Sequence record: OQ939939
DNA length: 64,000 nucleotides
Direction: 5' to 3' (one strand)
From: Escherichia phage SUT_E1620
Of the stretch, positions 1 through 37,664 are shown piece by piece (within the stretch, counting starts at the first letter, position 1; each line of letters starts with the position of its first letter). Both the position numbers and the translations under genes were made by a program. The notes beneath the pieces were generated by a model. That model saw nothing but the letters and a program-made list of their open reading frames with translations. It ran no database searches and was not told the origin of the DNA.

Positions 1-884
1 CTTCCGTTTCCATGTCTAGCGAAGCATACGAAACTATCTTCTCTACCCGTATTATCCGTGACCTGCAGAAGGAACTGGTAGTTGGTGCACTGTTCGATGA
101 ACTGCCAATGTCCAGCAAAATCCTTACTATGCTCGTTGAACCAGAAGCTGGTCGTGCTACTTGGGTAGATGCTTCCAAATTCGGTACTGACGAAACTGTT
201 GGTGACGAAGTTAAAGGTCAACTGACTGAAATCAGCTTCAAAACTTACAAGCTGGCTGCTAAGTCCTTCATCACTGATGAAACTGAAGAAGATGCAATCT
301 TCTCCCTGCTGCCTCTGCTGCGTAAGCGTCTGATCGAAGCACACGCTGTTTCTATCGAAGAAGCTTTCATGTCCGGTAATGGTACTGGTCAGCCTAAGGG
401 TCTGCTGAAACTGGCTGCTGATGATGGTGCTAAGGTTGTTACCGAAGCTAAAGCTGACGGTTCTGTTCTGGTAACTGCTAAAACTATCTCCAAGCTGCGT
501 CGTAAACTGGGCCGTCACGGTCTGAAACTGAGCAAACTGGTACTGATCGTATCTATGGATGCTTACTACGATCTGCTGGAAGATGAAGAATGGCAGGATG
601 TTGCCCAGGTTGGTAACGATGCTGTTAAACTGCAGGGTCAGGTTGGTCGTATTTACGGTCTGCCGGTTGTAGTTTCTGAGTACTTCCCAGCTAAAGCTGC
701 TTCCGCTGAATTCGCAGTTATTGTTTATAAAGATAACTTCGTAATGCCGCGTCAGCGTGCCGTTACTGTTGAACGTGAGCGCCAAGCTGGCAAACAGCGT
801 GACGCATACTACGTTACTCAGCGTGTTAACCTGCAACGTTACTTCGAAAACGGCGTTGTATCTGGTGCTTACGCTGCATCTTAA
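1..884 (+). CDS. major capsid protein (T5 pb8-like), C-terminal part; 5' end outside window
   Basis: ORF open to window edge; host-optimal codon usage typical of abundant virion proteins; strong terminator directly downstream; sits upstream of neck/tail genes. Confidence 0.55.
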   Translation, partial: SVSMSSEAYETIFSTRIIRDLQKELVVGALFDELPMSSKILTMLVEPEAGRATWVDASKFGTDETVGDEVKGQLTEISFKTYKLAAKSFITDETEEDAIFSLLPLLRKRLIEAHAVSIEEAFMSGNGTGQPKGLLKLAADDGAKVVTEAKADGSVLVTAKTISKLRRKLGRHGLKLSKLVLIVSMDAYYDLLEDEEWQDVAQVGNDAVKLQGQVGRIYGLPVVVSEYFPAKAASAEFAVIVYKDNFVMPRQRAVTVERERQAGKQRDAYYVTQRVNLQRYFENGVVSGAYAAS

Positions 885-903
885 TACAGGCTTTTCAGCC
901 GAT

Positions 904-929
904 AAGGAGAGCTTCGGCTCTCCTTTTTT
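904..929 (+). terminator. intrinsic terminator after capsid gene
   Basis: hairpin AAGGAGAGC-TTCG-GCTCTCCTT followed by T6. Confidence 0.75.
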
Positions 930-943
930 ATTGGGAAAAATAA

Positions 944-1456
944 ATGCAAATCATCACTGTTGAAGATTATAAACTATATGGGAACTTAAAACGTCCTGAT
1001 ATGGAAACTCAGGTTGAGATGATGATTAAAGCTGCCAATACGCTGATTACAAGCCTTCTAGGTATGGATGATGCAGACGCGGTAGATCAATTAATCACCA
1101 CAAAACCTAGCCGTAGGAAATATTTTCTGAGTTCCCCCTCAGCCACATCTATTACAAAGATGACTATTAACGAGAAAGAAATAGACCCGGAACAGTTTAA
1201 ACTGTATCCTGATGGTGTTATTCTTCTTAAGTTTAATCCTCCTGAAGGGTATATGGATGTAGAGTATACTCAAGGTGGTTTCAATCCAACGCCTGAAGAT
1301 CTTAAACTGGCAGCATGTCTGTTAGTAGACCACTGGCATAAGCAAGATTATCGTCAAGCCAAGACTATTGGTGGTGAGACAGTTACGTTTAACAATACTA
1401 AGTCTGGTATTCCAGAGCATATTCGTACAATCATCGAAGTCTACAGGAGAGTATAA
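944..1456 (+). CDS. head completion / head-tail adaptor protein (T5 p144-like)
   Basis: 170 aa; position between capsid and tail genes; size matches T5 synteny. Confidence 0.4.
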   Translation: MQIITVEDYKLYGNLKRPDMETQVEMMIKAANTLITSLLGMDDADAVDQLITTKPSRRKYFLSSPSATSITKMTINEKEIDPEQFKLYPDGVILLKFNPPEGYMDVEYTQGGFNPTPEDLKLAACLLVDHWHKQDYRQAKTIGGETVTFNNTKSGIPEHIRTIIEVYRRV

Positions 1457-2223
1457 TGGCTCTTTCTGATCTAGCTAGACAAATTATTAAAGAGCAGCTA
1501 GATACTGCAGGACGATCTGAGAATAATAAGAATACTGTTGTGTATACAGTTGAGACAGGTTTGAAAGATCCTACAAGAGATGGTACAGTTGCACAGGTAT
1601 CTTTCAAATTCTCAAAACCAGTATCTCAAGACTTATTAAATGTTAGGACAGCATCTATACTGAAGGCTGTTTCTTCTAATTTAGATCTTTCTGGTGATTT
1701 AGGCGCTCTAGAGAATTTAATTCAAGCAACAGCAGGTAAACGTTCTGCTGTTGGTAAAAAACGTTCTACCGGTAGAGTTCAGGTAAACTTTGGAGATCCT
1801 AGAGATACTGAAGATGGCTATTCTGGTGCAGTAACAGGTGCTTCCGGTCGTTTCGTATCGAATAGTAACATGCGTGCTATTCTTGAGATAGTAGCTAAGG
1901 AATACTTAATCAAGGATATGAAAAAAGCAGGGGCACCATTGAAGTTCAGAACTGGTCGCTTTGCTAACTCCTTAAAGATTAAAGACGTTATGCTACGTGA
2001 TGCAGAAACTAGTAAAGGTGCTCCAGAGCTGAATGTGACGTATAACTATATGGTTCGTCCTTACTCTGTGTTCAACCCCGCAGTTTCTACATATCGAAGA
2101 CTTTCTCTACGACCTTACCCTGGCGCTCGAAACCCTCAAAAACTTATTGGGGAAGCAATCGCAAAAGCTGCAAGAGACCTGATTCACTCTAGATATAAAA
2201 TCAAGGTTAATCAAGGAACCTAG
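1456..2223 (+). CDS. neck / tail completion protein (T5 p143-like)
   Basis: 255 aa; start overlaps previous stop (ATGA-type coupling); synteny. Confidence 0.4.
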   Translation: MALSDLARQIIKEQLDTAGRSENNKNTVVYTVETGLKDPTRDGTVAQVSFKFSKPVSQDLLNVRTASILKAVSSNLDLSGDLGALENLIQATAGKRSAVGKKRSTGRVQVNFGDPRDTEDGYSGAVTGASGRFVSNSNMRAILEIVAKEYLIKDMKKAGAPLKFRTGRFANSLKIKDVMLRDAETSKGAPELNVTYNYMVRPYSVFNPAVSTYRRLSLRPYPGARNPQKLIGEAIAKAARDLIHSRYKIKVNQGT

Positions 2224-2226
2224 TAA

Positions 2227-2712
2227 ATGGATCACAGAACAAGTATTGCACAAGCAGTGGTTGACCGAATCGCCACACAAATGGATGGTTCACAACCTGA
2301 CGAGTATTTCAATAACCTTTATGGAAACGTTTCTCGTCAAACTTATAAATTCGAGGAAATCCGAGAATTTCCTTATGTGGCAGTCCATATCGGAACTGAA
2401 ACTGGGCAGTATCTTCCCTCAGGCCAACAGTGGATGTTTTTAGAACTTCCAATCTTCGTGTATGACAAAGAGAAAACAGATATTCAAGAGCAACTTGAAA
2501 AACTCGTAGCTGACATAAAAACCGTCATTGACACAGGTGGAAATTTAGAATATACTGTTAGTAAACCTAATGGATCGACCTTCCCATGTGAGGCAACTGA
2601 TATGAGCATCACCTCAGTAGCTACAGATGAGGGTCTACTGGCCCCATATGGTTTAGCGGAAATAAATGTAACAGTGAGGTATCAGCCACCTCGTAGGGCA
2701 CTTCGCAGATAA
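2227..2712 (+). CDS. tail terminator protein (T5 p142-like)
   Basis: 161 aa; immediately upstream of tail tube gene; synteny. Confidence 0.45.
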   Translation: MDHRTSIAQAVVDRIATQMDGSQPDEYFNNLYGNVSRQTYKFEEIREFPYVAVHIGTETGQYLPSGQQWMFLELPIFVYDKEKTDIQEQLEKLVADIKTVIDTGGNLEYTVSKPNGSTFPCEATDMSITSVATDEGLLAPYGLAEINVTVRYQPPRRALRR

Positions 2713-2738
2713 GTTACAGATTAGGAGAATATAAATAA

Positions 2739-4148
2739 ATGTCTTTACAACTATTACGTAATACTCGAATCTTCGTGTCTACGGTTAAGACTGGTCACGA
2801 TAAGACCAACACGCAAGAGATTCTAGTTCAAGATGATATTTCTTGGGGTCAGGACAGTAACTCAACCGATATTACTGTTAACGAAGCTGGTCCGCGTCCA
2901 ACTCGTGGTTCAAAACGTTTCAACGACTCCCTGAACGCAGCTGAGTGGAGTTTCTCTACTTACATCCTGCCTTACTTAGATAAGACTACTAGTAAGCAGA
3001 TCGTTCCGGACTACATGCTGTGGCATGCTCTTTCTAGTGGTAAGCCTATCAACCTAGATGGTGATACAGGTGCTCACACTAACGAAACTAACTTCATGGT
3101 TAACTTTAAGGATAACGCATACCACGAGCTGGCAATGCTACATATTTACATCCTTACTGATAAAGCATGGAGCTACATCGATTCCTGTCAGATCAACCAG
3201 GCTGAAGTAAACGTTGATATCGAAGATATCGGTCGTGTAACTTGGTCAGGTAATGGTAACCAGCTGATCCCTCTGGACGCTGCTCCCTTTGATCCTGATA
3301 CTGTGGGTATTGATGATGAAACTTACATGACTATCCAGGGTTCTTACATCAAGAACAAACTGACTATCCTCAAAATTAAGGATATGGATACTGGTAAGGC
3401 ATATGACATTCCGATCACTGGTGGTAGCTTTACAATTAACAACAACATCACATATCTGACTCCTAACGTCATGTCCCGTGTTAACATCCCAATCGGTTCA
3501 TTTACTGGTGCATTCGAATTAACTGGTTCTCTGACCGCTTATCTTAACGATAAAGCTCTAGGTTCTATGGATCTGTATAAAGATCTGATTAAGACCCTGA
3601 AGGTAGTTAACCGTTTCGAAATCGCTCTAGTACTTGGCGGTGAATATGATGATGAGCGCCCAGCCGCTGTTCTAGTTGCTAAGCAAGCTCACGTTAACAT
3701 CCCAACTATTGAGACTGACGATGTACTTGGTACTTCTGTAGAGTTCAAAGCAATTCCTACTGATCTGGATACTGGTGATGAAGGTTATCTTGGTTTCTCT
3801 AATAAGTACACCAAAGCTACTATTGCAAATCTGATTGCAACTGGTGACGGTGGTAAAGCAGCTCCAGTAAAAGTAACAGGTATTACTGTTAAATCTGCGG
3901 GTGATGCAACTTCCGTCGAGAATAGTGCAACTCTTCAGATGACTGTAGATGTTTTACCTGCTGAAGCTACTAATAAGGAAGTAACTTGGTCTATTTCCTC
4001 TGGTACTGCTGCCACTATTGATGCAACTTCTGGGTTACTAACCGCTGATGCTTCTAAGACTGGTGCAGTTACTGTGAAAGCTGTAGCTAAAGATGGTTCT
4101 GGTGTAGAAGGTACTAAGAGCATTACAGTTACTGCTTCTGGTGGCTAA
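2739..4148 (+). CDS. tail tube protein pb6 with C-terminal Ig-like (Big_2-type) domain
   Basis: 469 aa; C-terminal Ser/Thr/Ala/Val-rich beta-sandwich-like segment (TWSISSGTAATIDATSG...); SD AGGAG upstream; synteny with T5 pb6. Confidence 0.75.
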   Translation: MSLQLLRNTRIFVSTVKTGHDKTNTQEILVQDDISWGQDSNSTDITVNEAGPRPTRGSKRFNDSLNAAEWSFSTYILPYLDKTTSKQIVPDYMLWHALSSGKPINLDGDTGAHTNETNFMVNFKDNAYHELAMLHIYILTDKAWSYIDSCQINQAEVNVDIEDIGRVTWSGNGNQLIPLDAAPFDPDTVGIDDETYMTIQGSYIKNKLTILKIKDMDTGKAYDIPITGGSFTINNNITYLTPNVMSRVNIPIGSFTGAFELTGSLTAYLNDKALGSMDLYKDLIKTLKVVNRFEIALVLGGEYDDERPAAVLVAKQAHVNIPTIETDDVLGTSVEFKAIPTDLDTGDEGYLGFSNKYTKATIANLIATGDGGKAAPVKVTGITVKSAGDATSVENSATLQMTVDVLPAEATNKEVTWSISSGTAATIDATSGLLTADASKTGAVTVKAVAKDGSGVEGTKSITVTASGG

Positions 4149-4152
4149 TTAA

Positions 4153-5052
4153 ATGTACTACTCTCTAATGAGGGAGTCAAAAGTTATAGTTGAGTACGAT
4201 GGCAGGGCTTATCATTTTGATGCCCTGTCAAATTACGATATCAATACGTCCTATGAGGAATTTAAAACTCTTCGTAGGACTATACATCGTAGAACCAACT
4301 ATGCTGACTCTATTATTAATGCACAAACTCCATCTTCAATATCACTGGCTATAAATTTTAGTAATACCCTTACTGAAGCTAACTTCTTTGAATGGATGGG
4401 CTTTGACCGAGAGGGTAACACATTCTTACTACCACTTTATAGTACAAATATTGAGCCAACAATGTTTAATATATACATAGTTAATAAAGATAATAACTGT
4501 GTATACTTTGAGAATTGCTATGTATCTACTGTAGACTTTTCTCTAGATAAAAGCGTTCCTATCCTAAACGTAGGAATTGAATCTGGTAAGTTCTCTGAGG
4601 TGTCTACTTTTACTCCTGCTGGTTCTATTGTTCAGGGTGAAGTTATGTCATATAGTCCTCCTAGAGTATCTACCAACAGTAATGTTTTACCAGCTCTTTT
4701 ATCCGCTTCTATGTCATTCCAGCAACAATGTTCTTGGAGAGAAGATAAAAGCGTATTTGACATAAACAAAATATATAATAATAAGAGAGCTTATGTTAAT
4801 GAAATGAATGCTTCGGCAACAATTGCATTTTACTACACCAAGCGATTTGCTGGTGATATATTTTATAATATTGAACCCGAAACTGACATACCATTAACCA
4901 TCAGAAATGAACATATTTCGATTGATTTTCCTTCAGCACGTATAACAAAACGCCTACAATTCTCGGATATATACAGAGTTGAATGGGATGTAATCCCTAC
5001 TGCAGACTCTGATCCGGTAAGAATCGACTTCTTTGGAGAAATAAAGAAATGA
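4153..5052 (+). CDS. tail protein p140-like
   Basis: 299 aa; AT-rich codon usage; position after tail tube gene as in T5. Confidence 0.45.
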   Translation: MYYSLMRESKVIVEYDGRAYHFDALSNYDINTSYEEFKTLRRTIHRRTNYADSIINAQTPSSISLAINFSNTLTEANFFEWMGFDREGNTFLLPLYSTNIEPTMFNIYIVNKDNNCVYFENCYVSTVDFSLDKSVPILNVGIESGKFSEVSTFTPAGSIVQGEVMSYSPPRVSTNSNVLPALLSASMSFQQQCSWREDKSVFDINKIYNNKRAYVNEMNASATIAFYYTKRFAGDIFYNIEPETDIPLTIRNEHISIDFPSARITKRLQFSDIYRVEWDVIPTADSDPVRIDFFGEIKK

Positions 5053-5453
5053 TCAATTTAAAAGATATTACCCTTGAAACTCGTACTATTGAGCTGGCTT
5101 ACCCAGGTATGCCTAACTTCAAGCTACAACTGAACTACATGTCTCGTGCTGCATCTAAGCGTGTTATCTCTTCCGCTAAGCGTGACGAGTGGGTTAACGG
5201 TACTATGATTCAGGTTCAGGATGATGATAAGTTTATTGAAGCTTTCGTTGATACTGCAATTGCTGGCTGGACTGGCTTGACGATTGGAGATGTTGAGAAG
5301 CTGATGCTTATCGAAACTGAGGCTGATCCTACTACTGAAGTTCCATTTAGTCGCGATAACGCTATCATGCTTATGCAGAACTCTGCTGCGTTTGATTCTT
5401 GGATCAACCAGACAGTGTTCCACTTAGACACTTTTCGTAGCTCAAAAGCGTAA
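5049..5453 (+). CDS. putative tail assembly chaperone
   Basis: 134 aa; located upstream of tape measure gene; start overlaps previous stop. Confidence 0.35.
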   Translation: MINLKDITLETRTIELAYPGMPNFKLQLNYMSRAASKRVISSAKRDEWVNGTMIQVQDDDKFIEAFVDTAIAGWTGLTIGDVEKLMLIETEADPTTEVPFSRDNAIMLMQNSAAFDSWINQTVFHLDTFRSSKA

Positions 5454-5514
5454 GCAGTTACTAGATGCTGTTGCCGATTTTGCAGATAAATGCATTAAAT
5501 CCTCAGCATCTAAA

Positions 5515-5883
5515 ATGACAAAACAACAATATTTAATGCTTTGTGAGTCTCTAGGTATTGAACCTGATCCTAAGGCAATGCCTGTTGAACTCGAAGATTT
5601 TCCACCTATTGTATCTACTAGTATGAATATTTATAACAGTCTTATTGACTGTTTCATACCAGGTGACTTTCCTATCTTTATAGGAAAAGACAAAAGTGCA
5701 TTAGGTGTTTTATTTGATATCTATGGGATTACTGATCCTATAGAGAAAGAGTTTGTTCTACACATCATCAATATATTTGATTCGAAAGCTGTAGATGCAG
5801 CTCGTAAGAGAGCCGAGAAGCATAGTAAACCTAATGGTCGTACCCCGAACATTAAGCCACATGCTAGATCTCGAGCTCAGTAA
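5515..5883 (+). CDS. putative tail assembly chaperone / hypothetical protein
   Basis: 122 aa; directly upstream of tape measure gene; followed by terminator. Confidence 0.3.
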   Translation: MTKQQYLMLCESLGIEPDPKAMPVELEDFPPIVSTSMNIYNSLIDCFIPGDFPIFIGKDKSALGVLFDIYGITDPIEKEFVLHIINIFDSKAVDAARKRAEKHSKPNGRTPNIKPHARSRAQ

Positions 5884-5919
5884 AAAGTTTCCTCCAATGG
5901 GCGTTCCACGATGAGGCTT

Positions 5920-5950
5920 GGCTCTGGGTGATTTGCCCAGAGCCTTTTTT
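5920..5950 (+). terminator. intrinsic terminator upstream of tape measure gene
   Basis: hairpin GGCTCTGGG-TGATTTG-CCCAGAGCC followed by T6. Confidence 0.7.
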
Positions 5951-5964
5951 ATTGGGAAAAATAA

Positions 5965-8900
5965 ATGACTGATAAGCTAATACGAGAACTACTTATAGAT
6001 GTAAAGCAGAAAGGGGCAACCCGTACTGCAAAATCTATTGAGAACGTTTCCGATGCGTTAGAAAATGCTGCTGCCGCTTCCGAACTGACTAATGAGCAGT
6101 TAGGAAAAATGCCCAAAACTCTTTACTCCATTGAGAGGGCGGCGGATAGAGCAGCTAAAAGTCTAACTAAAATGCAGGCTAGTAGAGGTATGGCTGGTAT
6201 CACTAAATCCATTGAAGGTATTGGTGATAAGCTAGATGATCTTGCCCTTGCTATGATCGAAGTATCTGAGAAGCTAGAGTCTGGATTTACACATGTGGGT
6301 AAATCTGTTAAGGCTATGGGTAACGATGTAGCTGCTGCAACCGAAAAAGTTCAAGATAGATTATATGATACTAACCGAGCACTAGGCAATACTGCTAGAG
6401 GCTTTAACGATACAACTACCTCCGCAGGACGTGCTAGTCGTGCAATTGGTAATACTTCTGGTTCAGCACGTGGTGCTACTCGTGACTTCGCAGCAATGGC
6501 TAAAGTGGGTGGTAGTTTACCTCTTATGTATGCTGCTATCGCGTCTAACGTGTTCGTTCTACAATCTGCATTCGAACAACTTAAGATGGGTGACCAGTTA
6601 AACCGTCTTGAGAAGTTTGGTACTATTGTTGGTACTCAAACAGGTACTCCTGTACAAACTCTAGCTAGATCTCTACAAGAGGCTGCTGGTTATGCAATCT
6701 CCTTCGAAGAAGCAATGAGACAGGCATCCTCTGCTTCTGCATATGGATTCGATGCTAAACAACTTAATAAATTTGGTCTAGTAGCTCGTCGTGCTGCTGC
6801 TGTTCTTGGTGTTGATATGACTGATGCACTTAACCGTGTAATCAAGGGCGTATCTAAACAAGAAATCGAACTTCTGGACGAACTTGGTGTTACTATTCGT
6901 CTTAACGATGCTTACGCAGACTATGTTAAACAGTTAAATGCTGCTAACACAGGTATTACATATAACGTTAATAGTCTCTCTACTTTCCAGAAGCAACAAG
7001 CATATGCTAACGCAGTTATCGCTGAATCTACTAAACGTTTCGGCTATCTTGATGATGTACTTCGTGCAACCCCCTGGGAACAGTTTGCTGCTAATGCTGA
7101 TGCTGCACTGAGAAAGGTTCAACAGGCTGCTGCTAAGTATTTAGGGCCAGTAATTGATTCTATCAACGCAGTGTTCTATACTTCTCAAGCATCTATCTCG
7201 GCCTCTGCTGCTAGAGCACAGGAAGAAACTAACCGCCAGATTGACCCAGCTAACGTTGGTGCTGTAGCTTTAAGTCTTTCCGCTTCTGAGGAAGGATATA
7301 ATAAAGCTCTTGATATGTACAAAGAATCTCTAGAAAAGCGTAATAAGTTAAAAGCTGATCTAGATAAGCGTATGGAACAGGCTGACTTCTTTACTGCAGG
7401 TGCAATTCGTTCTGTGGCTCAAGGTGTTCCGGTAAGTGCTGCGGCTCTTGGTGCTTCGGAGGAAAACAAGAAGTTCGTAGCTGAAACTGCTGCATTAGCT
7501 CTCCAGGTAGAGCGTCTTGATAAGGAAGTAGAGGATTCAACCGATAACTTAGGTGCATGGAAATCTGCATATCAAGCTGCTGGTGCTGCCGCAGCCAAAT
7601 CTAATACAGCATTCCAGAAGCAAATTAACCTACAGAAAGATGCAAATGACCCGGATGCGGTTTATGACTTTAACTCTGCAACTCTGAAAGGATTGACAGA
7701 ACAGCAGAAAGCGTATGACCAAGCTAAGAAAACTGCCAGTGACTTAGCTAACGATATCCAGAACATCGCTCAGAATACTAATACTGCGGCTAAAACTAGT
7801 GCATCCCTATCAGATACGATTAAGACTATTGAGTCTCTTTCTGCGGGTACTGGTAAAAATGCTGATGAGTATGTTAAGAGCCTGAACTTAGGGTATAATA
7901 CTCTTAGTGAGATGAAGACTGCTTCACAAGCTCTTGCTGGTTACGTAAAATTAACTGGTAATGAGACTAAGAATCAGTTAGAAGTTCAGCAGAAGATTGC
8001 AGAAGTATACAACCAGACTAAGGACAAAGAGAAAGCACAGGAAGCTGGTAGACGTCTGGAAATCCAACAGTTAGAAGAACAGGAAGCAGCTCTTAAGCGT
8101 GTCCTAGAAACTAACAAAGGTAACAAAGCAATCGAAGGTGAAATAGCTAAGATTCAGTTAGAACGTATCAAGATTACTAACCAGGGTATGGAAGCTCAGA
8201 AGAAGGTTAAGGACTATACCGATAAGATTCTTGGTGTTGATCGTGAAATTGCTCTCCTGAATAACCGTACTATGACAGATACTCAATATCGTTTAGCTCA
8301 GTTGAACCTTGAACTGACTGTCGAGAAAGAAAAGTATGAATGGTACTCCAAACAGGTTGATAAGCATAAGGAAGCTGAACAATCAAGACGTGCTCAGGCA
8401 CAAATTGAACGTGAAATCTGGAAATTCCGTCAGGATCAGCAAAGGGAAATGGCTGCTGGCAGGGAGGAGGAGCAACAAAGGAAGTTTACCGCAAATCCTT
8501 TAATGGGAGCTGCGGAACGTATCAAGGAGCAAATCCAGCTATTTGAAGACCTTAAGCAAAAAACTTTAGGGAATGCTGCTGCTCAGCTAGAGTATAACAA
8601 AAAACTGGCCGAAACTAGAGCCCAGCTCGCGGCTTTAAGAGTACAGCGCGATGCAGAAATGCAGTCTTCTGTAGGTGCGGCTGTAGGGGCTACGTATACT
8701 CCTACTACTGGATTAACTGGAGAAGATAAAAACTTCGCAGATATGCAGAATAGAATGGCATCCTACGACCAGGCTATTTCTAAGCTGTCTGAGCTGAACT
8801 CCGAAGCAACTGCTGTAGCACAAAGCATGGGTAACCTAACTAACGCTATGATCCAGTTCTCTCAAGGATCTCTGGATACCACTTCTCTAGTAGCGGCGGG

Positions 8901-9645
8901 TATGCAAACTGTATCTTCAATGATTCAGTATAGTGTTGGTCAACAGGTAAGTGCTATTGATGCAGCTATTGCAGCAGAACAGAAACGTGACGGTAAATCT
9001 GAGCAATCCAAAGCTAAGATCAAGAAGTTAGAGGCTGAAAAGCTCAAGATCCAGCAAGATGCAGCTAAGAAGCAAATCATTATCCAGACGGCAGTAGCGG
9101 TGATGCAAGCAGCAACAGCTGTTCCGTACCCATTCTCTATTCCTCTGATGGTTGCGGCTGGTTTAGCAGGTGCTATGGCTCTTGCTCAAGCATCCTCTGC
9201 ATCTGGTATGTCTTCTATTGGGGACTCTGGTGCTGAGACAGCTGGTTACTTAACTCTTGGAGAGCGCCAGAAGAACGTAGACGTTTCTATGTCGGCTAAC
9301 GCAGGTGAGCTTTCTTATATTCGAGGAGATCAAGGGATTGGTAATGCTAACTCTTTCGTACCCCGTGCAGAAGGTGGTAATATGTATCCTGGAGTTAGTT
9401 ACCAGATGGGTGAACATGGTACCGAAGTAATCACTCCTATGGTTCCGATGAAGGCTACTCCTACTGATGAACTCAAAGGATCTTCAAAGGGTACATCGGG
9501 TAGACCTATTGTGCTGAACATCAGTACGATGGATGCGGCTAGCTTCCGAGACTTTGCTTCGAGCAACAGTGCTGCTTTCAGGGATGCCGTAGAACAGGCT
9601 CTTAATGAGAATGGAACCACCCTGAAATCACTTGGTAATTCTTAA
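5965..9645 (+). CDS. tape measure protein (T5 pb2-like)
   Basis: 1226 aa; long Ala/Gln/Lys/Glu-rich coiled-coil segments; hydrophobic segment near C-terminus; size and position match T5 pb2. Confidence 0.85.
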   Translation: MTDKLIRELLIDVKQKGATRTAKSIENVSDALENAAAASELTNEQLGKMPKTLYSIERAADRAAKSLTKMQASRGMAGITKSIEGIGDKLDDLALAMIEVSEKLESGFTHVGKSVKAMGNDVAAATEKVQDRLYDTNRALGNTARGFNDTTTSAGRASRAIGNTSGSARGATRDFAAMAKVGGSLPLMYAAIASNVFVLQSAFEQLKMGDQLNRLEKFGTIVGTQTGTPVQTLARSLQEAAGYAISFEEAMRQASSASAYGFDAKQLNKFGLVARRAAAVLGVDMTDALNRVIKGVSKQEIELLDELGVTIRLNDAYADYVKQLNAANTGITYNVNSLSTFQKQQAYANAVIAESTKRFGYLDDVLRATPWEQFAANADAALRKVQQAAAKYLGPVIDSINAVFYTSQASISASAARAQEETNRQIDPANVGAVALSLSASEEGYNKALDMYKESLEKRNKLKADLDKRMEQADFFTAGAIRSVAQGVPVSAAALGASEENKKFVAETAALALQVERLDKEVEDSTDNLGAWKSAYQAAGAAAAKSNTAFQKQINLQKDANDPDAVYDFNSATLKGLTEQQKAYDQAKKTASDLANDIQNIAQNTNTAAKTSASLSDTIKTIESLSAGTGKNADEYVKSLNLGYNTLSEMKTASQALAGYVKLTGNETKNQLEVQQKIAEVYNQTKDKEKAQEAGRRLEIQQLEEQEAALKRVLETNKGNKAIEGEIAKIQLERIKITNQGMEAQKKVKDYTDKILGVDREIALLNNRTMTDTQYRLAQLNLELTVEKEKYEWYSKQVDKHKEAEQSRRAQAQIEREIWKFRQDQQREMAAGREEEQQRKFTANPLMGAAERIKEQIQLFEDLKQKTLGNAAAQLEYNKKLAETRAQLAALRVQRDAEMQSSVGAAVGATYTPTTGLTGEDKNFADMQNRMASYDQAISKLSELNSEATAVAQSMGNLTNAMIQFSQGSLDTTSLVAAGMQTVSSMIQYSVGQQVSAIDAAIAAEQKRDGKSEQSKAKIKKLEAEKLKIQQDAAKKQIIIQTAVAVMQAATAVPYPFSIPLMVAAGLAGAMALAQASSASGMSSIGDSGAETAGYLTLGERQKNVDVSMSANAGELSYIRGDQGIGNANSFVPRAEGGNMYPGVSYQMGEHGTEVITPMVPMKATPTDELKGSSKGTSGRPIVLNISTMDAASFRDFASSNSAAFRDAVEQALNENGTTLKSLGNS

Positions 9646-9652
9646 TACTGGA

Positions 9653-9679
9653 GGAGGACTTTATGTCCTCCTTTTCTTT
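9653..9679 (+). terminator. intrinsic terminator after tape measure gene
   Basis: hairpin GGAGGAC-TTTAT-GTCCTCC followed by TTTTCTTT. Confidence 0.7.
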
Positions 9680-9698
9680 ATGGAAAAATAAAAATTTC

Positions 9699-9727
9699 TT
9701 GATAAAATTTTCCAATCCTATTATAAT
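9699..9727 (+). promoter_or_regulatory. sigma70-type promoter inside late tail operon (upstream of pb9)
   Basis: TTGATA-17 bp-TATAAT, followed by strong SD. Confidence 0.5.
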
Positions 9728-18958: not shown

Positions 18959-21253
18959 ATGTCACGTAATTTAATGCCTAAATCTGGCGCAATGGCGCCA
19001 TACATTGTAGTTAATAGAGACGCTGCTGTTGCTGGTGTTTTCTCTATTGACGGAGAAGCTGGCGCTGTTGTACTTACTTCTAAGTACTTACAAATCTCTA
19101 AATATAATTTAGATCAGCAAGCTCTAGCTACTCGTCTTACTGGAATAGATAGCTCTATTCAAAGTAATACTGAAGCTATTGGAAATATTAATACTGCAAT
19201 TGGTAGTATTAATAGTAGTCTAAGTGCCAAAGCGGCTAAGGGTGCTAATAATGATATTACAGAATTAAATGCACTTACTAAGGCTATTACTGTATCTCAA
19301 GGTGGTACAGGTGCTACTTCTCCAGATGGAGCACGTTTAGCACTAGAATTAAATCATCTCACTAAGTCAACAGATGTCTCATATATGGGATCTCCTGATG
19401 GTTCAAAGTTACTTTATATTAGTAATGAGGGGGCTTGGGGAGTTACTGCTGAGGGTGGTGGCACTAACTATGCACTACCTATTACTCAAGGTGGTACAGG
19501 TGCTTTAAGTGCAGCAGAGGCACTAGTTAAGCTAATGGATGGTAAACCATTACCATTAGCTGCAGATGGGCAAGCTCCTTATGATGCTGTAACTGTAAGG
19601 CAACTATCTAATATTTCTGGTGGCGGAAATGCTAGCATGAGTGGAGTTATGAATAACTTCATAGGTGCTGTTGAGTGGTTTAATGGTAACCGTACTAAGC
19701 TACCTGCCGGCTATATACCAGCAGACGGTCAATTAGAAAGCCGTACCGATCCTAAGACTAGGGATCTATGGGCGGCAGTTTCAGGTGGATTATTCGTAAG
19801 TGTTAGTGATACAGAGTGGATAACTAACTCCTACGGTCAGGATTACCAAAAAACAGGGAATAGAGGTGCATATTCTACAGGAGATGGCTCTACTAACTTC
19901 CGTGTACCTGATTTAAACGGCGTTAGAAGAAATGGGGATACTATGGATGGAATTCCTTTTGCAGGATATGATACCCCTTATGCAGCATTCCTTCGTGGTG
20001 ACGGTGGTGGTAGTATTAATGGAGTATTTGCCTCTGGGGCGCTAAATATGAGTGCTGCCCCTAATATAATAGGTAACTTTTCTGTAAGAGTACCAAATAA
20101 CCATGGAATGTACGCTACTGGTATTTTCTCGGGTATAAATCATACAGGATGGCCTGATGCTCCAGATGCTAGTTATTCTGGAGGAAGTGGAACAGCGGAT
20201 TTTGTAGATACTCAGAAGTATGGATATTCTCTAAATGCTGCAGCAGGTAGCCCAGTATATGGAAGAGATGGTACATCAGAGGTACGCCCTACTGCTGTTA
20301 CTGGTCTTTGGATTATCCGTGCTAACGGTTCTTTTAACGCTGCTGGTTCACAGTATCATGTTATTAATGGAGACTCTACACGCCCTGCTGATGGAACTAC
20401 TACTTATGGTGGCTTTGCGTATAGTGACTACAGAATAGGGGAAACAGTTAATCACTCAGCTTTAATAGTAAGTGCCAAAAGATTTGGTAATCCTTATAGT
20501 GTTGCTGTTCTTCAGTCCTATAATGATGAGACAGGGGATCTTGCCAACCTAGAGGTACAATCTAATGGTGTTGTTAACTTACCTACTTCGATTAATAATA
20601 AATCCTGGATACAAGCTTTTGGTGCCAACGGCCTGCATTTAGATGCTGCTACTACTGCTCAAGATCTACATACTATGCCTGGTGGAGGTTGTGGTGTATC
20701 TCAAGCAGAGAGAAATGCTATCGAGTTGAATAATAACCCAGGTGCTGTAGGTTCTGGTGGTTATGTTAACTGGCTGCAAGGATGGTGGTATGACGATAGG
20801 TTCCAGTTCGGTGCTATTCGTAGTGGTTCTACTGTATTGGATGCTGTAGCCTTATCTACATATTCTAATGCATTGGGGTTAAAACAGTGGTTCTTTAGGG
20901 CTAATGATGGTAGGATTGCTTCCACTGCAGGTACTATTGCTATTGAAGGTTCAGATATCAAACTTAAGGAGAATATAGTTAGAGCACCAGAAGGGGCCTT
21001 AGATAGAATAACTAAAATCACCCCTAGAGAGTTTGACTGGAAAGCTGGAGGTAGGCATGATAGAGGATATATTGCTCAGGAATTACGTGATGTAGATCCT
21101 ACCTATGTATATTCATCAACTGTTGGGGAAGGAGAAGAGGTATTAAACGTTAGTACATCTGCTTTGATTTCTGACTTAATAGCTGCTGTTACAACTCTTA
21201 AACAAGAGTTGGATTCTGCCAAATTAGAAATTAAAAAGCTAAAAGCTAAATAA
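18959..21253 (+). CDS. ltfB: second L-shaped tail fibre protein LtfB with C-terminal intramolecular chaperone domain
   Basis: 764 aa; QGGTGA...AR motifs (x2); C-terminal GSDIKLK...GYIAQELRDVD chaperone signature; SD AAGGA upstream. Confidence 0.75.
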   Translation: MSRNLMPKSGAMAPYIVVNRDAAVAGVFSIDGEAGAVVLTSKYLQISKYNLDQQALATRLTGIDSSIQSNTEAIGNINTAIGSINSSLSAKAAKGANNDITELNALTKAITVSQGGTGATSPDGARLALELNHLTKSTDVSYMGSPDGSKLLYISNEGAWGVTAEGGGTNYALPITQGGTGALSAAEALVKLMDGKPLPLAADGQAPYDAVTVRQLSNISGGGNASMSGVMNNFIGAVEWFNGNRTKLPAGYIPADGQLESRTDPKTRDLWAAVSGGLFVSVSDTEWITNSYGQDYQKTGNRGAYSTGDGSTNFRVPDLNGVRRNGDTMDGIPFAGYDTPYAAFLRGDGGGSINGVFASGALNMSAAPNIIGNFSVRVPNNHGMYATGIFSGINHTGWPDAPDASYSGGSGTADFVDTQKYGYSLNAAAGSPVYGRDGTSEVRPTAVTGLWIIRANGSFNAAGSQYHVINGDSTRPADGTTTYGGFAYSDYRIGETVNHSALIVSAKRFGNPYSVAVLQSYNDETGDLANLEVQSNGVVNLPTSINNKSWIQAFGANGLHLDAATTAQDLHTMPGGGCGVSQAERNAIELNNNPGAVGSGGYVNWLQGWWYDDRFQFGAIRSGSTVLDAVALSTYSNALGLKQWFFRANDGRIASTAGTIAIEGSDIKLKENIVRAPEGALDRITKITPREFDWKAGGRHDRGYIAQELRDVDPTYVYSSTVGEGEEVLNVSTSALISDLIAAVTTLKQELDSAKLEIKKLKAK

Positions 21254-27294: not shown

Positions 27295-27321
27295 TTTTGT
27301 CTCTCATCAATTTATGTATAT

Positions 27322-27350
27322 ATTATACATTAAATAGGGAGGATTTGACA
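27322..27350 (-). promoter_or_regulatory. promoter for 120-aa gene / SSB-like unit
   Basis: TTGTCA-17-TATAAT on - strand. Confidence 0.5.
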
Positions 27351-27434
27351 AGTACAATTTTTATTTTTCTGCTTCGGACTTTCTTATCAATCCGAAACTT
27401 TCTCTCTCAAATTTATGTGTATATTATACAATAA

Positions 27435-27463
27435 TTATGAGCAGTTGCCAAATGCAATTTTAG
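27435..27463 (-). promoter_or_regulatory. second tandem promoter, overlapping helicase gene 3' end
   Basis: TTGGCA-17-TATAAT followed by CATAAATTTGAGAGAG box. Confidence 0.5.
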
Positions 27464-28787
27464 CTAATTGTACTGCTTTCTCCGGAGTCATAGTAATAGT
27501 TTTCCATGCATTATTGCGATACACGGCCATACGTCCAGAAGCCTGTCTTAAACCAGTACCTCCTTTCATAATTAAATCTACAACAATCGGATCTAGCTTT
27601 CCGTCAACAATACGTTGAACGCGGCCTGCTAACTGTTCTATGAGAGATTCATTATTAATGAGACTTCCCATTATTAAACAAGACAGCTCGTTAAGAGAAA
27701 TACCTTCTGAGAAGATACTCTGAGCTGCTGCAAGCACACAGGGTCCGCCCTCCGCTACATCTTTCTGGATTCTCAATCGGTCATCCAAAGGAGTTGCACC
27801 TATAATCTCATAGGTTGTAACACCACGTTGAGCGAGAGCTTCTAGTATTGTTTGAATTAGTTCTGTTCTATCACTTACAAAGAGAACCTTATGCCCCATA
27901 GACACATATAAATGTGCTAAGTTTATAATAGTTTCCCGATATTCAGGATGATTATACACATCGTTAGCACGTAATGCCCACGGTACGTTCTGGTTTCCTG
28001 ATAATTCTACAGGCACGGAGTACCTATGGATTGTGGGTGGAACAGTATTATTAACCGGAGGACTAAAGATCTTATATCCAAAGAAGTCTTTGAACATAAC
28101 TTGTAGCCCATCTTTACGTTTTAATGTACCTGATAGACCGATCTTGTAGCGAGCACATGAGATCTCTAGGAAATTAGTGAAAGTTGTAGCTACACAGTGG
28201 TGAACTTCATCAACTATAACAGTACCGAATACCTTAGAAAGATTATTCGCATGTTTGTTCACTGTTTGTATATTACTGACCACGATTGGTGGATCAATGT
28301 TATACTTTCCAGAACCTATAATACCCGGCTCGAATCCAAACCATTTACGAACTTCTGCAGCCCACATTTCACGAATGGATGTGTTAGTGCAGATTACCAG
28401 AGTTTTCTGGCCAAACTTATATGCAAGAGCTAGAGCTAGGATAGTTTTACCAAATCCAGGCTTACCATTGATAATACAAGTATCATCGCACTCTTCATAT
28501 ATAGGAAGCTGATCTTCCTCACGTAGCTTGAACTGAGGTTCTGGTATTTCTACCGGAGCTAACGTGCGTTTGTCAACTAATTCGTATTTTACTCCCTTAG
28601 CATCTAGTAAATCTAGACGCGTAATGGGAATCCACTTAATCTCTTTAGCAACAACACCACTATTCTTATACATAATAGGGTATTTACTAGTCATTGTCTC
28701 GATGTGATAAGTGGTTTGTTTACTACAGTAATCCCAGAGTTCATCATCGGGCTTGAAATAGGCTTTATTAGATATAACAACCTTCAT
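27435..28787 (-). CDS. SF2 DNA helicase (T5 D10-like)
   Basis: 450 aa; Walker A GKPGFGKT, DEAH-like VIVDEVHH, C-terminal helicase domain. Confidence 0.7.
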   Translation of the reverse strand: MKVVISNKAYFKPDDELWDYCSKQTTYHIETMTSKYPIMYKNSGVVAKEIKWIPITRLDLLDAKGVKYELVDKRTLAPVEIPEPQFKLREEDQLPIYEECDDTCIINGKPGFGKTILALALAYKFGQKTLVICTNTSIREMWAAEVRKWFGFEPGIIGSGKYNIDPPIVVSNIQTVNKHANNLSKVFGTVIVDEVHHCVATTFTNFLEISCARYKIGLSGTLKRKDGLQVMFKDFFGYKIFSPPVNNTVPPTIHRYSVPVELSGNQNVPWALRANDVYNHPEYRETIINLAHLYVSMGHKVLFVSDRTELIQTILEALAQRGVTTYEIIGATPLDDRLRIQKDVAEGGPCVLAAAQSIFSEGISLNELSCLIMGSLINNESLIEQLAGRVQRIVDGKLDPIVVDLIMKGGTGLRQASGRMAVYRNNAWKTITMTPEKAVQLAKIAFGNCS

Positions 28788-29281
28788 AATTTTATTCTAA
28801 GTCTAGGAATTTCAGGCTCCTCTTGATGGACTTGATAAATAACAGGGCTATTATTTACCAGAATATAGCTTATATAAGCTGGAACATAGGATAGCACGAA
28901 TGGATACGGGACTTTAGCCACATAGCATTGATACTTTCCATTATAAATTCTTGCAGAATGCAGAACTTTAGATGTGCTAACATCATAGAACGTAGTTTTC
29001 TTCCAGTTAATGAGATTTCCATCAGAATCTATGAACTGGCTACGCTTTGACCCAACTAATTGGGACAACATTGATATTCTACCACGAATAGGATAGAGCT
29101 TATAAGGTAATTCTTTCCGCTTCTCAAATAAGGCTAACCTACGTTGAGAGAATGTGCCAGGCAACTCCCTGTTATCTAACACATATTTATTATATCTTGT
29201 TGTAATTATGGAATAATCACCTTCCTGCTCAATTGATACAAACGCCCGTAAAGCATATACGGGCAATTTGAAATCAAGCAC
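28784..29281 (-). CDS. hypothetical protein
   Basis: 165 aa; coupled between polymerase and helicase genes. Confidence 0.35.
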   Translation of the reverse strand: MLDFKLPVYALRAFVSIEQEGDYSIITTRYNKYVLDNRELPGTFSQRRLALFEKRKELPYKLYPIRGRISMLSQLVGSKRSQFIDSDGNLINWKKTTFYDVSTSKVLHSARIYNGKYQCYVAKVPYPFVLSYVPAYISYILVNNSPVIYQVHQEEPEIPRLRIKL

Positions 29282-31841: not shown

Positions 31842-31902
31842 ATTTAGTCTCCTTTTGGTAAGTAAGTATAACTTCAGTGTTTCTTCTCTAACTTACCAAT
31901 AT

Positions 31903-31911
31903 ATTATACCA
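31903..31911 (-). promoter_or_regulatory. extended -10 promoter upstream of DNA polymerase gene
   Basis: TGGTATAAT on - strand, 60 nt upstream of polymerase start. Confidence 0.35.
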
Positions 31912-34314: not shown

Positions 34315-34340
34315 AGCCCCCTCCCCTTAGGTTTAATTTA
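34305..34340 (-). terminator. intrinsic terminator after D5-like gene
   Basis: G/C-rich hairpin (AAGGGGAGG...CCTTCCCCTT) followed by T5 on - strand. Confidence 0.55.
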
Positions 34341-34345
34341 CCAGA

Positions 34346-35888: not shown

Positions 35889-35915
35889 ATTTCTTCCTTA
35901 TCAATTTATATAAAT

Positions 35916-35944
35916 ATTATAGCAAGTATTTAAGCATTTAGCAA
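35916..35944 (-). promoter_or_regulatory. promoter proximal to ligB
   Basis: TTGCTA-17-TATAAT on - strand in ligA-ligB spacer. Confidence 0.55.
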
Positions 35945-36008
35945 CTACAATTTTAACTAACTTTGCTTACCCTCGCCATAACTTTCTATCCCTCAACTGA
36001 ATGATAAT

Positions 36009-36037
36009 AGTATATACCTAAGCGGCGAAAATGTCAA
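36009..36037 (-). promoter_or_regulatory. second promoter in ligA-ligB spacer
   Basis: TTGACA-17-TATACT on - strand. Confidence 0.45.
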
Positions 36038-36087
36038 TAACCACTTTATAATTCCGACACGGTAAACGGGTAGCAAAGGGTTACGAA

Positions 36088-37059: not shown

Positions 37060-37270
37060 CGTCTGCGATTTCCATTTTGAGTTCTTTGTTATACTGAGCA
37101 GCCATACCAGCTAAATCAGCAGCTTCTTTCAACCACGCATCTTTGTACGCTTTCTGGTTTGGAGTGCCGATACTATCCTGGTAATTGATTCTTGCTATGG
37201 AGAGCAAATTAAGTTTTGCTTGAATCTTTGGAAGTGTTATTGTCATTGCCATAATTGATCCTCTCATCAA
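37052..37270 (-). CDS. hypothetical protein
   Basis: 72 aa; T5-type promoter upstream; overlaps ligA start. Confidence 0.35.
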   Translation of the reverse strand: MMRGSIMAMTITLPKIQAKLNLLSIARINYQDSIGTPNQKAYKDAWLKEAADLAGMAAQYNKELKMEIADDE

Positions 37271-37281
37271 TTTATATAAAT

Positions 37282-37310: not shown

Positions 37311-37337
37311 GTACATTTATAAAGAAAAAGCCAAGAA

Positions 37338-37646: not shown

Positions 37647-37664
37647 TTACATATCCCAAATACA

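What the first reader, a model, noticed from the sequence alone, without database searches (positions are those of the whole stretch)
904..5967. Exact 25-nt terminator-to-start cassette repeated upstream of two late genes
The string CCTTTTTTATTGGGAAAAATAAATG occurs identically at about 922-946 and 5943-5967, each time fusing the U tract of an intrinsic terminator to the ATG of the next late gene (head completion gene and tape measure gene). A diverged copy (TTTTCTTTATGGAAAAATAAAAAT) follows the tape-measure terminator near 9672-9695. Neither ATG has a canonical AGGAG Shine-Dalgarno. Perfect conservation over 25 nt in an otherwise diverged intergenic context suggests a functional unit: a late promoter or restart element coupled to termination, or a translation-initiation element.
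Basis: seen in the sequence. Interest (0 to 1): 0.5.

Follow-up and report, generated by a model that had tools for sequence, protein, structure and literature searches.

The report
Leaky terminator fused to ribosome site
The repeated 25-base string is real, but it is the U-rich tail of an ordinary transcription terminator running straight into a weak ribosome-binding site and start codon, a compact junction conserved at two places in all T5-like phages, and it is not a promoter.

Summary
CCTTTTTTATTGGGAAAAATAAATG occurs exactly at 922-946 and 5943-5967, with none expected by chance. The window is a T5-like phage (Epseptimavirus, about 99.6% identical to Salmonella phage bux).

Each copy has four parts:
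- the last two stem bases of an intrinsic terminator;
- its U-tract, TTTTTTATT;
- a weak Shine-Dalgarno, GGGA, 7 nt before the ATG;
- an A/T-rich spacer and the ATG.

In 17 Demerecviridae lineages, with capsid identity down to 37%, both junctions keep the same plan. The hairpins differ, the U-tract-to-ATG distance is 16-23 nt, and the purine block is often a canonical GGAG or GGAGG.

The string shared across the family is 23 nt. The exact 25-mer at both sites is specific to the Epseptimavirus lineage. Both whole intergenic regions are more conserved than the flanking coding DNA.

It is not a promoter. It has no -35/-10 boxes, the ATG lies inside it, and the mapped T5 late promoters PJ5 and PG25 lie elsewhere. 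The third, diverged copy is a terminator tail plus the AT-rich upstream block of PG25.

Tests for concerted evolution, a homing-endonuclease target, a dispersed motif and long-range SD sequestration were all negative or inconclusive.

Verdict: an ordinary junction, already annotated as terminators in T5, under unusually strong constraint.

The parts
1..884 (+). 3' part of the major capsid protein gene; its stop codon ends at 884
   Evidence: ORF 12..884. Homologous to T5.149 and bux_26.
889..900 (+). Small hairpin GGCU-UUUC-AGCC ahead of terminator 1
   Evidence: MFE fold. Other lineages have GGCU-AAU-AGCC or GGCA-AUA-UGCC at the same place. This segment is invariant among 26 close relatives.
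904..925 (+). Terminator 1 hairpin AAGGAGAGC-UUCG-GCUCUCCUU
   Evidence: Terminator scan. Hairpin energy -14.5 kcal/mol. Annotated as a rho-independent terminator at the same place in T5, NC_005859.
922..946 (+). Copy 1 of the 25-mer: stem end CC (922-923), U-tract TTTTTTATT (924-932), weak SD GGGA (933-936), spacer AAAATAA (937-943), ATG (944-946)
944..1456 (+). Head completion / head-tail adaptor gene
   Evidence: Pfam HCP PF24163, E=2.5e-78, covering the full length from residue 2.
2528..2556 (+). Late promoter PJ5 equivalent (TTGACA-17-TATACT), the true late promoter between the two cassettes
   Evidence: Best promoter hit. Maps onto the T5 feature 'promoter P-J 5'. Late 5' ends shown by primer extension in PMC7472727.
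5515..5883 (+). Second tail-assembly chaperone ORF; its stop codon ends at 5883
   Evidence: ORF list. Homologous to T5.142 and bux_33.
5886..5919 (+). Conserved non-coding element upstream of terminator 2 (UUUCCUCC at 5888-5895, GGGCGUUCCACGA at 5899-5911, GAGG at 5913-5916)
   Evidence: Conserved at 0.81 identity to five distant lineages, against 0.31-0.33 for the adjacent coding blocks. Invariant in 26 close relatives. Recognisable as far out as Vibrio phage Cody.
5920..5944 (+). Terminator 2 hairpin GGCUCUGGGUGAUUUGCCCAGAGCC
   Evidence: Hairpin energy -19.1 kcal/mol. RNAalifold finds 9 pairs, 6 with compensatory changes, across 17 lineages. Annotated as a terminator in T5.
5943..5967 (+). 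Copy 2 of the 25-mer: CC (5943-5944), U-tract (5945-5953), GGGA (5954-5957), spacer (5958-5964), ATG (5965-5967)
5965..9645 (+). Tape measure / pore-forming tail tip protein gene (pb2 homologue)
   Evidence: Pfam TMP_N matches residues 1-82 and TMP_C matches 1189-1224.
9650..9674 (+). Terminator 3 hairpin, after the tape measure gene
   Evidence: Annotated as a terminator in T5.
9672..9698 (+). The diverged third copy: terminator tail TTTTCTTTAT followed by the A/T block GGAAAAATAAAAATTTC, which lies just upstream of the -35 box of PG25
   Evidence: T5-type promoters have an AT-rich block (AAAAATT) around -43 (PMC3326045). Similar terminator-to-A/T-block-to-TTGCT junctions occur at 51174, 53620 and 37329(-).
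9699..9727 (+). Late promoter PG25 equivalent (TTGATA-17-TATAAT). It drives the distal tail protein gene at 9754, which has a strong SD, AAGAGGAG
   Evidence: Late transcripts from PG25 shown in PMC7472727.

Best explanation
Each 25-mer is the 3' half of a compact terminator-plus-ribosome-binding-site junction inside a late operon. The upstream gene is needed in large amounts: the major capsid protein at site 1, and the tail tube and chaperone genes at site 2. That gene ends and a strong GC-rich hairpin plus the U-tract UUUUUUAUU terminates most transcripts. The polymerases that read through produce an mRNA in which the next gene starts only 20 nt after the U-tract begins. That gene uses a weak Shine-Dalgarno (GGGA, 7-nt spacer) in an A/U-rich context. 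The next gene is the head completion protein at site 1 and the tape measure protein at site 2, both needed in few copies, and neither has a promoter of its own. The junction therefore lowers expression at two levels, through less mRNA and a weak ribosome site. The two copies are alike because both follow one template that is old and family-wide: U6-AUU, a purine block, an A/U spacer, then AUG. In the common ancestor of the T5, Klebsiella and Proteus phage groups the two sites already differed by only one or two bases. Their exact identity in this lineage is a small further step on sequences that are otherwise nearly frozen by selection. Shown here: the hairpins, U-tracts, true start codons, weak SD, conserved spacing, replacement by a canonical SD in orthologues, the strong constraint, and the absence of promoter features. 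Inferred: partial read-through, the dosage role, and any enhancer role of the U/A tracts through ribosomal protein S1.
For: Hairpins plus U-tracts are found at 904-932 and 5920-5953, and the same three terminators are annotated in T5. The terminator 2 stem has compensatory changes in 6 of 9 pairs across 17 lineages. At site 1, many unrelated stems are followed by the same kind of tail. The start codons are confirmed by full-length Pfam matches. GGGA gives -4.2 kcal/mol against the anti-SD, in the weakest quartile of 70 genes, and the ...AAATAAATG spacer is common at gene starts in this phage. In 34 cassettes from 17 lineages the U-tract-to-ATG distance is 16-23 nt (median 20), and 18 of them carry an SD of -6 kcal/mol or stronger at the position of GGGA. 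The genes after terminators 1 and 2 have only about 20 nt between hairpin and ATG, with no -35/-10. The known late promoters are PJ5 and PG25. The junction blocks are 0.75-0.87 identical to five distant lineages, against 0.31-0.82 for coding blocks. Among 26 close relatives, pi is 0.000-0.014 in the junctions against 0.13-0.27 at third codon positions. The same TTTTTTATT tail follows another terminator at 21284, and another terminator-to-RBS junction lies at 37670(-).
Against: No transcript 3' or 5' ends were available for these junctions, so termination and read-through are inferred from sequence. The conservation exceeds what a generic terminator and RBS need: lineage L096/L116, whose capsid protein is only 61% identical, has a 45-46-nt stretch identical to the window. 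The pre-hairpin segments are also invariant, which this model does not explain. Predicted unpaired probability of the GGG is only about 0.3 at both sites, so free accessibility of the ribosome site is not demonstrated.
Confidence: 0.77

Rival explanations
1. The 25-mer is a late promoter or a re-initiation element, from which RNA polymerase restarts after terminating.
For: The diverged third copy lies directly upstream of a real late promoter, PG25. How T5 switches to late transcription is not understood (PMC7472727).
Against: No -35/-10 pair is found in or near either copy. The hexamer at -12 to -7 relative to the ATG is TGGGAA. The ATG lies within the string, so a transcript starting there would lack the SD. 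The window's promoters are a distinct family of 7-8 copies, TTGCTw-17-TATAATA. T5 late promoters are sigma-70 type, and the mapped late 5' ends are at PJ5 and PG25. In other lineages the GGGAAAA block is replaced by GGAGG-type SDs, not by promoter boxes. At the third copy, the promoter boxes lie downstream of the part that resembles the 25-mer.
Confidence: 0.03
2. The exact identity is a historical accident of copying, through gene conversion or illegitimate recombination between the two junctions, and has no meaning of its own beyond what each junction does.
For: Exact identity over 23-25 nt is limited to the T5/Epseptimavirus group. Other lineages show only partial similarity between their two sites. 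Within-genome similarity of the post-U-tract parts exceeds between-genome similarity when the T5 group is included (p=0.025).
Against: Without the T5 group the excess is not significant (p=0.09-0.22). Variants arise at one site only and never in parallel, for example L003, L009, L012, L010, L017 and L026. The inferred ancestral states were already about one or two bases apart, ATTGGGWAAAAT against ATTGGAAAAAT, so no copying event is required. This rival concerns only the cause of the identity and is compatible with the best explanation.
Confidence: 0.12
3. The shared string is the recognition or insertion site of a family of mobile endonuclease genes that home into these two junctions.
For: In T5 the gene T5.141 is inserted at site 2 exactly between TTTTTTATT and the purine block. 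HildyBeyeler-type phages carry a homologous gene at site 1, with 36-40% identity and both proteins matching Pfam CapR PF21817 plus DUF4379.
Against: The site-1 insertions lie between the capsid stop codon and the terminator, about 40 nt upstream of the 25-mer, which stays intact downstream. So the insertion point is not the same relative to the string. The string is conserved in many lineages that lack the inserted gene. Cleavage specificity was not testable here.
Confidence: 0.03
4. The junctions are sequence-specific RNA operators. A trans-acting factor, either a phage RNA-binding protein or host Hfq or S1, recognises the hairpin, U-tract and A-rich (ARN-like) AAAAAUAAA. Alternatively, the upstream pyrimidine element UUUCCUCC pairs with the SD. 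Either way, read-through or translation of low-copy virion proteins would be co-regulated.
For: Constraint exceeds generic needs: pi is 0.000 in the pre-hairpin segments, and a 45-46-nt stretch is identical in a lineage with 61% capsid identity. The MFE fold of site 2 pairs UUCC-A-CGAUGAGG with UUUUAUUG-GGAA. The upstream segment is more complementary to the SD region than shuffled versions are (z=-2.8).
Against: There is no covariation. Own-genome pairing is no better than cross-genome pairing (p=0.89 at site 2, p=0.73 at site 1). RNAalifold supports only the terminator stem. No Rfam family matches. There are no parallel changes at the two sites. No candidate factor is known.
Confidence: 0.08

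Closest known systems
Rho-independent terminators annotated in phage T5 (NC_005859: after D20-21/major head protein, after T5.142, after D18-19/pb2)
   Same: They sit at the same three positions and have the same hairpins. At site 1 the T5 sequence is identical to the window through the ATG.
   Different: The T5 record marks only the terminators. It does not note that the tail plus ribosome site is the same string at two junctions. In T5 itself, site 2 is split by the inserted gene T5.141.
Leaky terminators placed after highly expressed structural genes, such as T7 T-phi after capsid gene 10 and the partial terminators between phiX174 structural genes (from my own knowledge, not tested here)
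   Same: A terminator follows the most abundant structural gene. Downstream low-copy structural genes have no promoter and must be expressed by read-through.
   Different: Here the polymerase is the host sigma-70 enzyme, and read-through efficiency is unmeasured. The start of the next gene is fused to within 20 nt of the U-tract, with family-wide fixed spacing.
Weak-SD, A/U-rich translation initiation regions that rely on ribosomal protein S1 (from my own knowledge)
   Same: A short purine block sits at the correct distance from the start, flanked by U-rich and A-rich single-stranded tracts.
   Different: S1 dependence is only inferred. The U-rich tract here is primarily a terminator tail.
T5-type sigma-70 promoters with an AT-rich block around -43 (PMC3326045; PG25 and PJ5 in PMC7472727)
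   Same: This applies only to the third, diverged copy. Its A-rich half lies where the upstream AT block of PG25 is expected.
   Different: Copies 1 and 2 have no -35 or -10 boxes and are followed at once by coding sequence.
PeSL-type repeated promoter/stem-loop modules of T4-like phages (from my own knowledge)
   Same: Short conserved non-coding strings containing a stem-loop recur at gene boundaries.
   Different: PeSLs are numerous, contain promoters and flank variable gene cassettes. Here there are only two copies per genome, at fixed orthologous junctions, with no promoter.

Membership tests
Intrinsic (rho-independent) terminator | GC-rich hairpin immediately followed by a U-tract, on the same strand as and downstream of a stop codon | tested here: met
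   Hairpins at 904-925 (-14.5 kcal/mol) and 5920-5944 (-19.1 kcal/mol), each followed by TTTTTTATT. They begin 20 and 37 nt after the stop codons.
Intrinsic (rho-independent) terminator | The stem is kept by compensatory changes in relatives | tested here: met
   Site 2: 6 of 9 pairs have changes on both sides. Site 1: unrelated stems in distant lineages are followed by the same kind of tail.
Intrinsic (rho-independent) terminator | RNA 3' ends in the U-tract in vivo or in vitro | not testable with these tools
   No transcript 3'-end data for T5-like phages were found.
Shine-Dalgarno-led translation initiation region | Purine-rich anti-SD complement 5-10 nt upstream of a genuine start codon | tested here: met
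   GGGA with a 7-nt spacer, -4.2 kcal/mol, which is weak (bottom quartile). The starts are confirmed by full-length Pfam matches.
Shine-Dalgarno-led translation initiation region | The orthologous position is occupied by a recognisable SD in relatives | tested here: met
   GGAG, GGAGG, GAGG or AAGGAG at the same distance. 18 of 34 cassettes score -6 kcal/mol or stronger.
Shine-Dalgarno-led translation initiation region | Ribosome binding and initiation at this site | not testable with these tools
   This needs toeprinting, ribosome profiling or reporter fusions.
T5-type sigma-70 (late) promoter | -35 and -10 hexamers 16-18 nt apart | tested here: not met
   The scan gives no site at 900-1000 or 5920-6030 on the + strand. 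The window's promoter family, TTGCTw-17-TATAATA, does not include the 25-mer.
T5-type sigma-70 (late) promoter | The transcript start lies upstream of the ribosome site of the gene served | tested here: not met
   The ATG is inside the string. Only 11 nt separate the end of the U-tract from the ATG.
T5-type sigma-70 (late) promoter | Mapped primary 5' ends | not testable with these tools
   Published primer extension maps late 5' ends at PJ5 and PG25 only, among the promoters tested (PMC7472727). No genome-wide map was found.
Homing-endonuclease target or insertion site | Related mobile genes inserted at the same point of the motif | tested here: not met
   T5.141 splits the string at ATT|GGG. 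The homologous HildyBeyeler-type gene sits upstream of the whole terminator.
Dispersed regulatory repeat | Many copies per genome at varied gene boundaries | tested here: not met
   There are two copies in the window. All 48 matches in IMG/VR are at the two orthologous junctions of T5-like contigs, with at most 2 per genome.
Structured cis-regulatory RNA (Rfam family, or SD-sequestering helix) | Match to a curated family, or covariation supporting a helix beyond the terminator | tested here: not met
   No relevant Rfam match at E<=1. RNAalifold finds only the terminator. The own-genome versus cross-genome duplex test gives p=0.89.

The most novel reading that the evidence does not exclude
The two junctions, including the invariant pre-hairpin segments and the UUUCCUCC...GGGCGUUCCACGA element before terminator 2, could be sequence-specific RNA control modules. 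They might be read by a shared trans-acting factor, or they might switch between alternative pairings. Either would set terminator read-through or translation of the low-copy virion proteins (head completion protein and tape measure) in step with the abundant ones.
Probability: 0.08. Interest if true: 0.5.

Novelty: already known. Interest (0 to 1): 0.2.

Why it matters
The finding explains how a T5-like late operon can make hundreds of capsid and tail-tube subunits but only a few adaptor and tape-measure molecules from one direction of transcription. It does this with a strong but leaky terminator followed at once by a weak ribosome site. For annotation, it shows that these two genes have no promoter and that the repeated string should not be labelled a promoter. 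For phage engineering, it marks two short junctions that are almost frozen across the family and that tolerate gene insertion only at specific points. The unusually strong constraint on the whole intergenic regions is the one feature that may hide further regulation.

Tried and rejected
1. Promoter reading. Rejected on the consensus scan, on position relative to the ATG, on comparison with the window's own promoter family, and on published late 5' ends.

2. Family-wide concerted evolution of the two sites. A permutation test of within-genome against between-genome similarity gave p=0.025-0.07 with the T5 group and p=0.09-0.22 without it, so this is not supported.

3. Long-range anti-SD:SD helix, either UUUCCUCC or UUCC.CGAUGAGG pairing with the cassette. 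The MFE fold suggests it and the complementarity exceeds shuffles (z=-2.8). But there is no lineage-specific covariation (p=0.89), and RNAalifold keeps only the terminator stem.

4. Homing-endonuclease target. The inserted genes are homologous, but their insertion points differ.

5. Dispersed motif. The string occurs only at the two orthologous junctions.

6. Rfam. Nothing relevant matched.

7. Minus-strand TTTTATTGGG at 49986. This is an unrelated GGGAG ribosome site.

8. Coding explanation for the conserved stretch after 5883. T5 and the window differ there by two offsetting indels, and there is no conserved ORF (reading), so coding is unlikely.

9. T5 nick site. The BF23 paper gives no nick consensus. 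From my own knowledge the major T5 nicks lie at other map positions. This was not tested.

10. A protein alignment of the chaperone was too divergent to drive a locus search, so the capsid alignment was used instead.

11. The BF23 late-gene transcript paper (PMC197117) is not held, and no T5 transcriptome paper was found.

Full report
**Observation.** The string CCTTTTTTATTGGGAAAAATAAATG is present exactly at 922-946 and 5943-5967 on the + strand. No other site matches with up to 5 mismatches. None of 100 dinucleotide-preserving shuffles gave a match. It is the longest exact direct repeat in the window (family D9).

**Context.** The window is a T5-like phage of the genus Epseptimavirus, 99.6% identical over the test stretch to Salmonella phage bux. 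Gene order matches T5.
- Site 1 lies between the major capsid gene (stop at 884) and the head completion/adaptor gene (944-1456).
- Site 2 lies between the second tail-assembly chaperone ORF (stop at 5883) and the tape measure gene (5965-9645).
- Both ATGs are true starts. The Pfam HCP profile matches from residue 2 and TMP_N from residue 1, each from profile position 1.

**Anatomy.** Each copy starts with the last two bases of a terminator stem. The site-1 hairpin is 904-925, AAGGAGAGC-UUCG-GCUCUCCUU, at -14.5 kcal/mol. The site-2 hairpin is 5920-5944, at -19.1 kcal/mol. After the stem come the U-tract TTTTTTATT, GGGA, a 7-nt A/T spacer and the ATG. The two hairpins are unrelated in sequence. 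T5's RefSeq record annotates rho-independent terminators at exactly these places, plus a third after the tape measure gene. GGGA pairs with the anti-SD at -4.2 kcal/mol. That is in the weakest quartile of 70 genes in the window (median -5.95), so it is weak but not absent. A spacer of the form ...AAATAAATG is common at gene starts in this phage.

**Close relatives.** I compared 33 T5-like loci.
- The whole 59-nt site-1 spacer is nearly invariant.
- At site 2 most Tequintaviruses read ...GGGAAAAATAAAACATG or ...AAAATATG, three bases longer than the window.
- The string shared across the group is therefore the 23-mer CCTTTTTTATTGGGAAAAATAAA. The 25-mer including the ATG at both sites is limited to the window's own lineage, and bux itself has one extra A at site 2.
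- In IMG/VR all 48 matches to the 23-mer are at these two junctions of T5-like contigs, with at most two per genome.
- Among 26 close genomes, nucleotide diversity is 0.000-0.014 in the intergenic segments. It is 0.13-0.27 at third codon positions and 0.02-0.05 at first and second positions of the flanking genes.

**Distant relatives.** A capsid-protein alignment retrieved 80 more loci, with capsid identity from 37% to 100%.
- In 17 representative lineages both junctions keep the same plan: stop codon, strong hairpin (many different stems), T5-7, usually ATT, a purine block, an A/T spacer, then ATG.
- The distance from U-tract start to ATG is 16-23 nt (median 20) in all 34 cassettes.
- In 18 of them the purine block is an SD of -6 kcal/mol or stronger (GGAG, GGAGG, GAGG, AAGGAG). 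This identifies GGGA as the ribosome site.
- Terminator 2 has compensatory changes in 6 of 9 pairs.
- Against five distant lineages, the junction blocks are the best-conserved 30-nt blocks in their neighbourhoods, at 0.75-0.87 against 0.31-0.82 for coding DNA.
- Lineage L096/L116, whose capsid protein is 61% identical, carries a 45-46-nt stretch identical to the window at site 1. Proteus phage Stubb differs by one base in the cassette.

**Not a promoter.** No -35/-10 pair is found at either copy. The ATG lies inside the string. The hexamer at -12 to -7 relative to the ATG is TGGGAA, so a leaderless start is not plausible either. The window's real T5-type promoters form a separate repeat family of 7-8 copies, TTGCTw-17-TATAATA with an upstream A/T block, as described for T5-like phages (PMC3326045). 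[quoted passage not shown] These correspond to window 2528-2556 and 9699-9727, the two best promoter matches in the region. The genes directly after terminators 1 and 2 have only about 20 nt between hairpin and ATG. They must therefore be expressed by read-through. This last step is inference.

**The third copy.** At 9672-9698 the terminator-3 tail TTTTCTTTAT is followed by GGAAAAATAAAAATTTC. That sequence abuts the -35 box of PG25 and lies where T5-type promoters have their AT-rich upstream block. Similar terminator-to-A/T-block-to-TTGCT junctions occur at 51174, 53620 and 37329(-). Its likeness to the 25-mer comes from composition and from a shared terminator tail.

**Why the two copies are identical.** Within-genome similarity of the two cassettes exceeds between-genome similarity only when the T5 group is included (p=0.025-0.07). 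Without that group, p=0.09-0.22. Variants occur at one site only and never in parallel. In the Klebsiella, Pectobacterium, L096 and Proteus groups, site 1 reads ATTGGG(A/T)AAAAT and site 2 usually reads ATTGGAAAAA(A)T. So the two were already one or two bases apart long ago. Exact identity needs no special mechanism, although a small conversion event cannot be excluded.

**Mobile genes.** In T5, the gene T5.141 is inserted at site 2 between TTTTTTATT and the purine block, and it ends in ATGA overlapping the tape measure start. HildyBeyeler-type phages carry a homologous gene at site 1, with 36-40% identity and Pfam CapR plus DUF4379 matches. There it lies upstream of the whole terminator. The differing insertion points argue against the string being a homing target.

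**Structure beyond the terminator.** The segment 5886-5919 (UUUCCUCC, GGGCGUUCCACGA, GAGG) is conserved as far out as Vibrio phages. The MFE fold pairs part of it with the U-tract and GGGAA, and complementarity to the SD region exceeds shuffles (z=-2.8). But own-genome pairing is no better than cross-genome pairing (p=0.89). RNAalifold keeps only the terminator, and Rfam has no relevant match. This element remains unexplained.

**Mechanism and verdict.**
- The best-supported reading is a compact leaky-terminator plus weak-ribosome-site junction. It lowers expression from an abundant structural gene to a low-copy one (confidence about 0.77).
- The parts and their conservation are shown. Read-through and the dosage role are inferred.
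- It works like the terminators that follow capsid genes in T7 and phiX174 (my own knowledge), and it coincides with terminators already annotated in T5.
- The only unusual aspect is the strength of the constraint on the whole intergenic regions. That leaves a small chance (about 0.08) of a sequence-specific RNA control module.
- Interest is low, at 0.2.

Noticed in passing
window 5886-5919: The non-coding stretch between the chaperone stop codon and terminator 2 (UUUCCUCC, GGGCGUUCCACGA, GAGG) is conserved at nucleotide level from T5 to Proteus and partly to Vibrio phages. It is more conserved than the adjacent coding DNA. It contains an anti-SD-like CCUCC. No covariation, Rfam match or ORF explains it.
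   Followed up: partly
L001 15864-16616 (T5.141) and L003 6148-6441 (HildyBeyeler bas33_0008): Homologous CapR-domain/treble-clef genes (36-40% identity) are inserted at site 2 in T5 and at site 1 in HildyBeyeler-type phages. The site-1 copy is short and is followed by two tiny ORFs, as if decaying. T5.141 ends in ATGA overlapping the tape measure start.
   Followed up: partly
L096 and L116 (IMG/VR contigs 2974638963 and 2974770163), about 160 nt after the capsid stop: This lineage's capsid protein is only about 61% identical to the window's, yet it has a 45-46-nt stretch at site 1 (hairpin, tail and ATG) identical to the window. The flanking coding DNA on both sides is strongly diverged. The cause is either extreme constraint or exchange of the junction.
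   Followed up: no
window about 53600-53621 (+): A terminator hairpin AAGGAGATC-UUCG-GGUCUCCUU resembles the site-1 hairpin but has two compensatory changes. It is followed by an A/T block and a TTGCTA -35 box.
   Followed up: no
window about 37646-37690 (-): Another terminator-to-start junction: AGCCCCTATATGGGGCT TTTTTGTGTATTTGGGATATGTAAATG. The next gene again uses a GGGA-type weak SD.
   Followed up: no
window 50025-63652 (+) and 27301-47122 (reverse-complement family): Two repeat families of 7-8 copies are the phage's sigma-70 promoters: an A/T block, TTGCTw, 17 nt, then TATAATA. They served here as an internal comparator.
   Followed up: partly
window 5049-5453 and 5515-5883; L004 10206-10628 and 10600-11028: The two tail-assembly chaperone ORFs are 61 nt apart and in different frames in the window and in T5, but they overlap in the Klebsiella phage. 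The usual frameshift arrangement may differ between lineages.
   Followed up: no
public records MG065642.1 and PQ773600.1: Records named 'Campylobacter phage A148' and 'Corynebacterium phage CPphiVTCCBPA_418' carry T5-like sequence, at 97.7% DNA identity and 92.9% protein identity to the window respectively. This suggests host misassignment or contamination.
   Followed up: no
window 19296-19315 and 19485-19504: An exact 20-nt direct repeat, CTCAAGGTGGTACAGGTGCT, lies 189 nt apart inside a tail gene.
   Followed up: no
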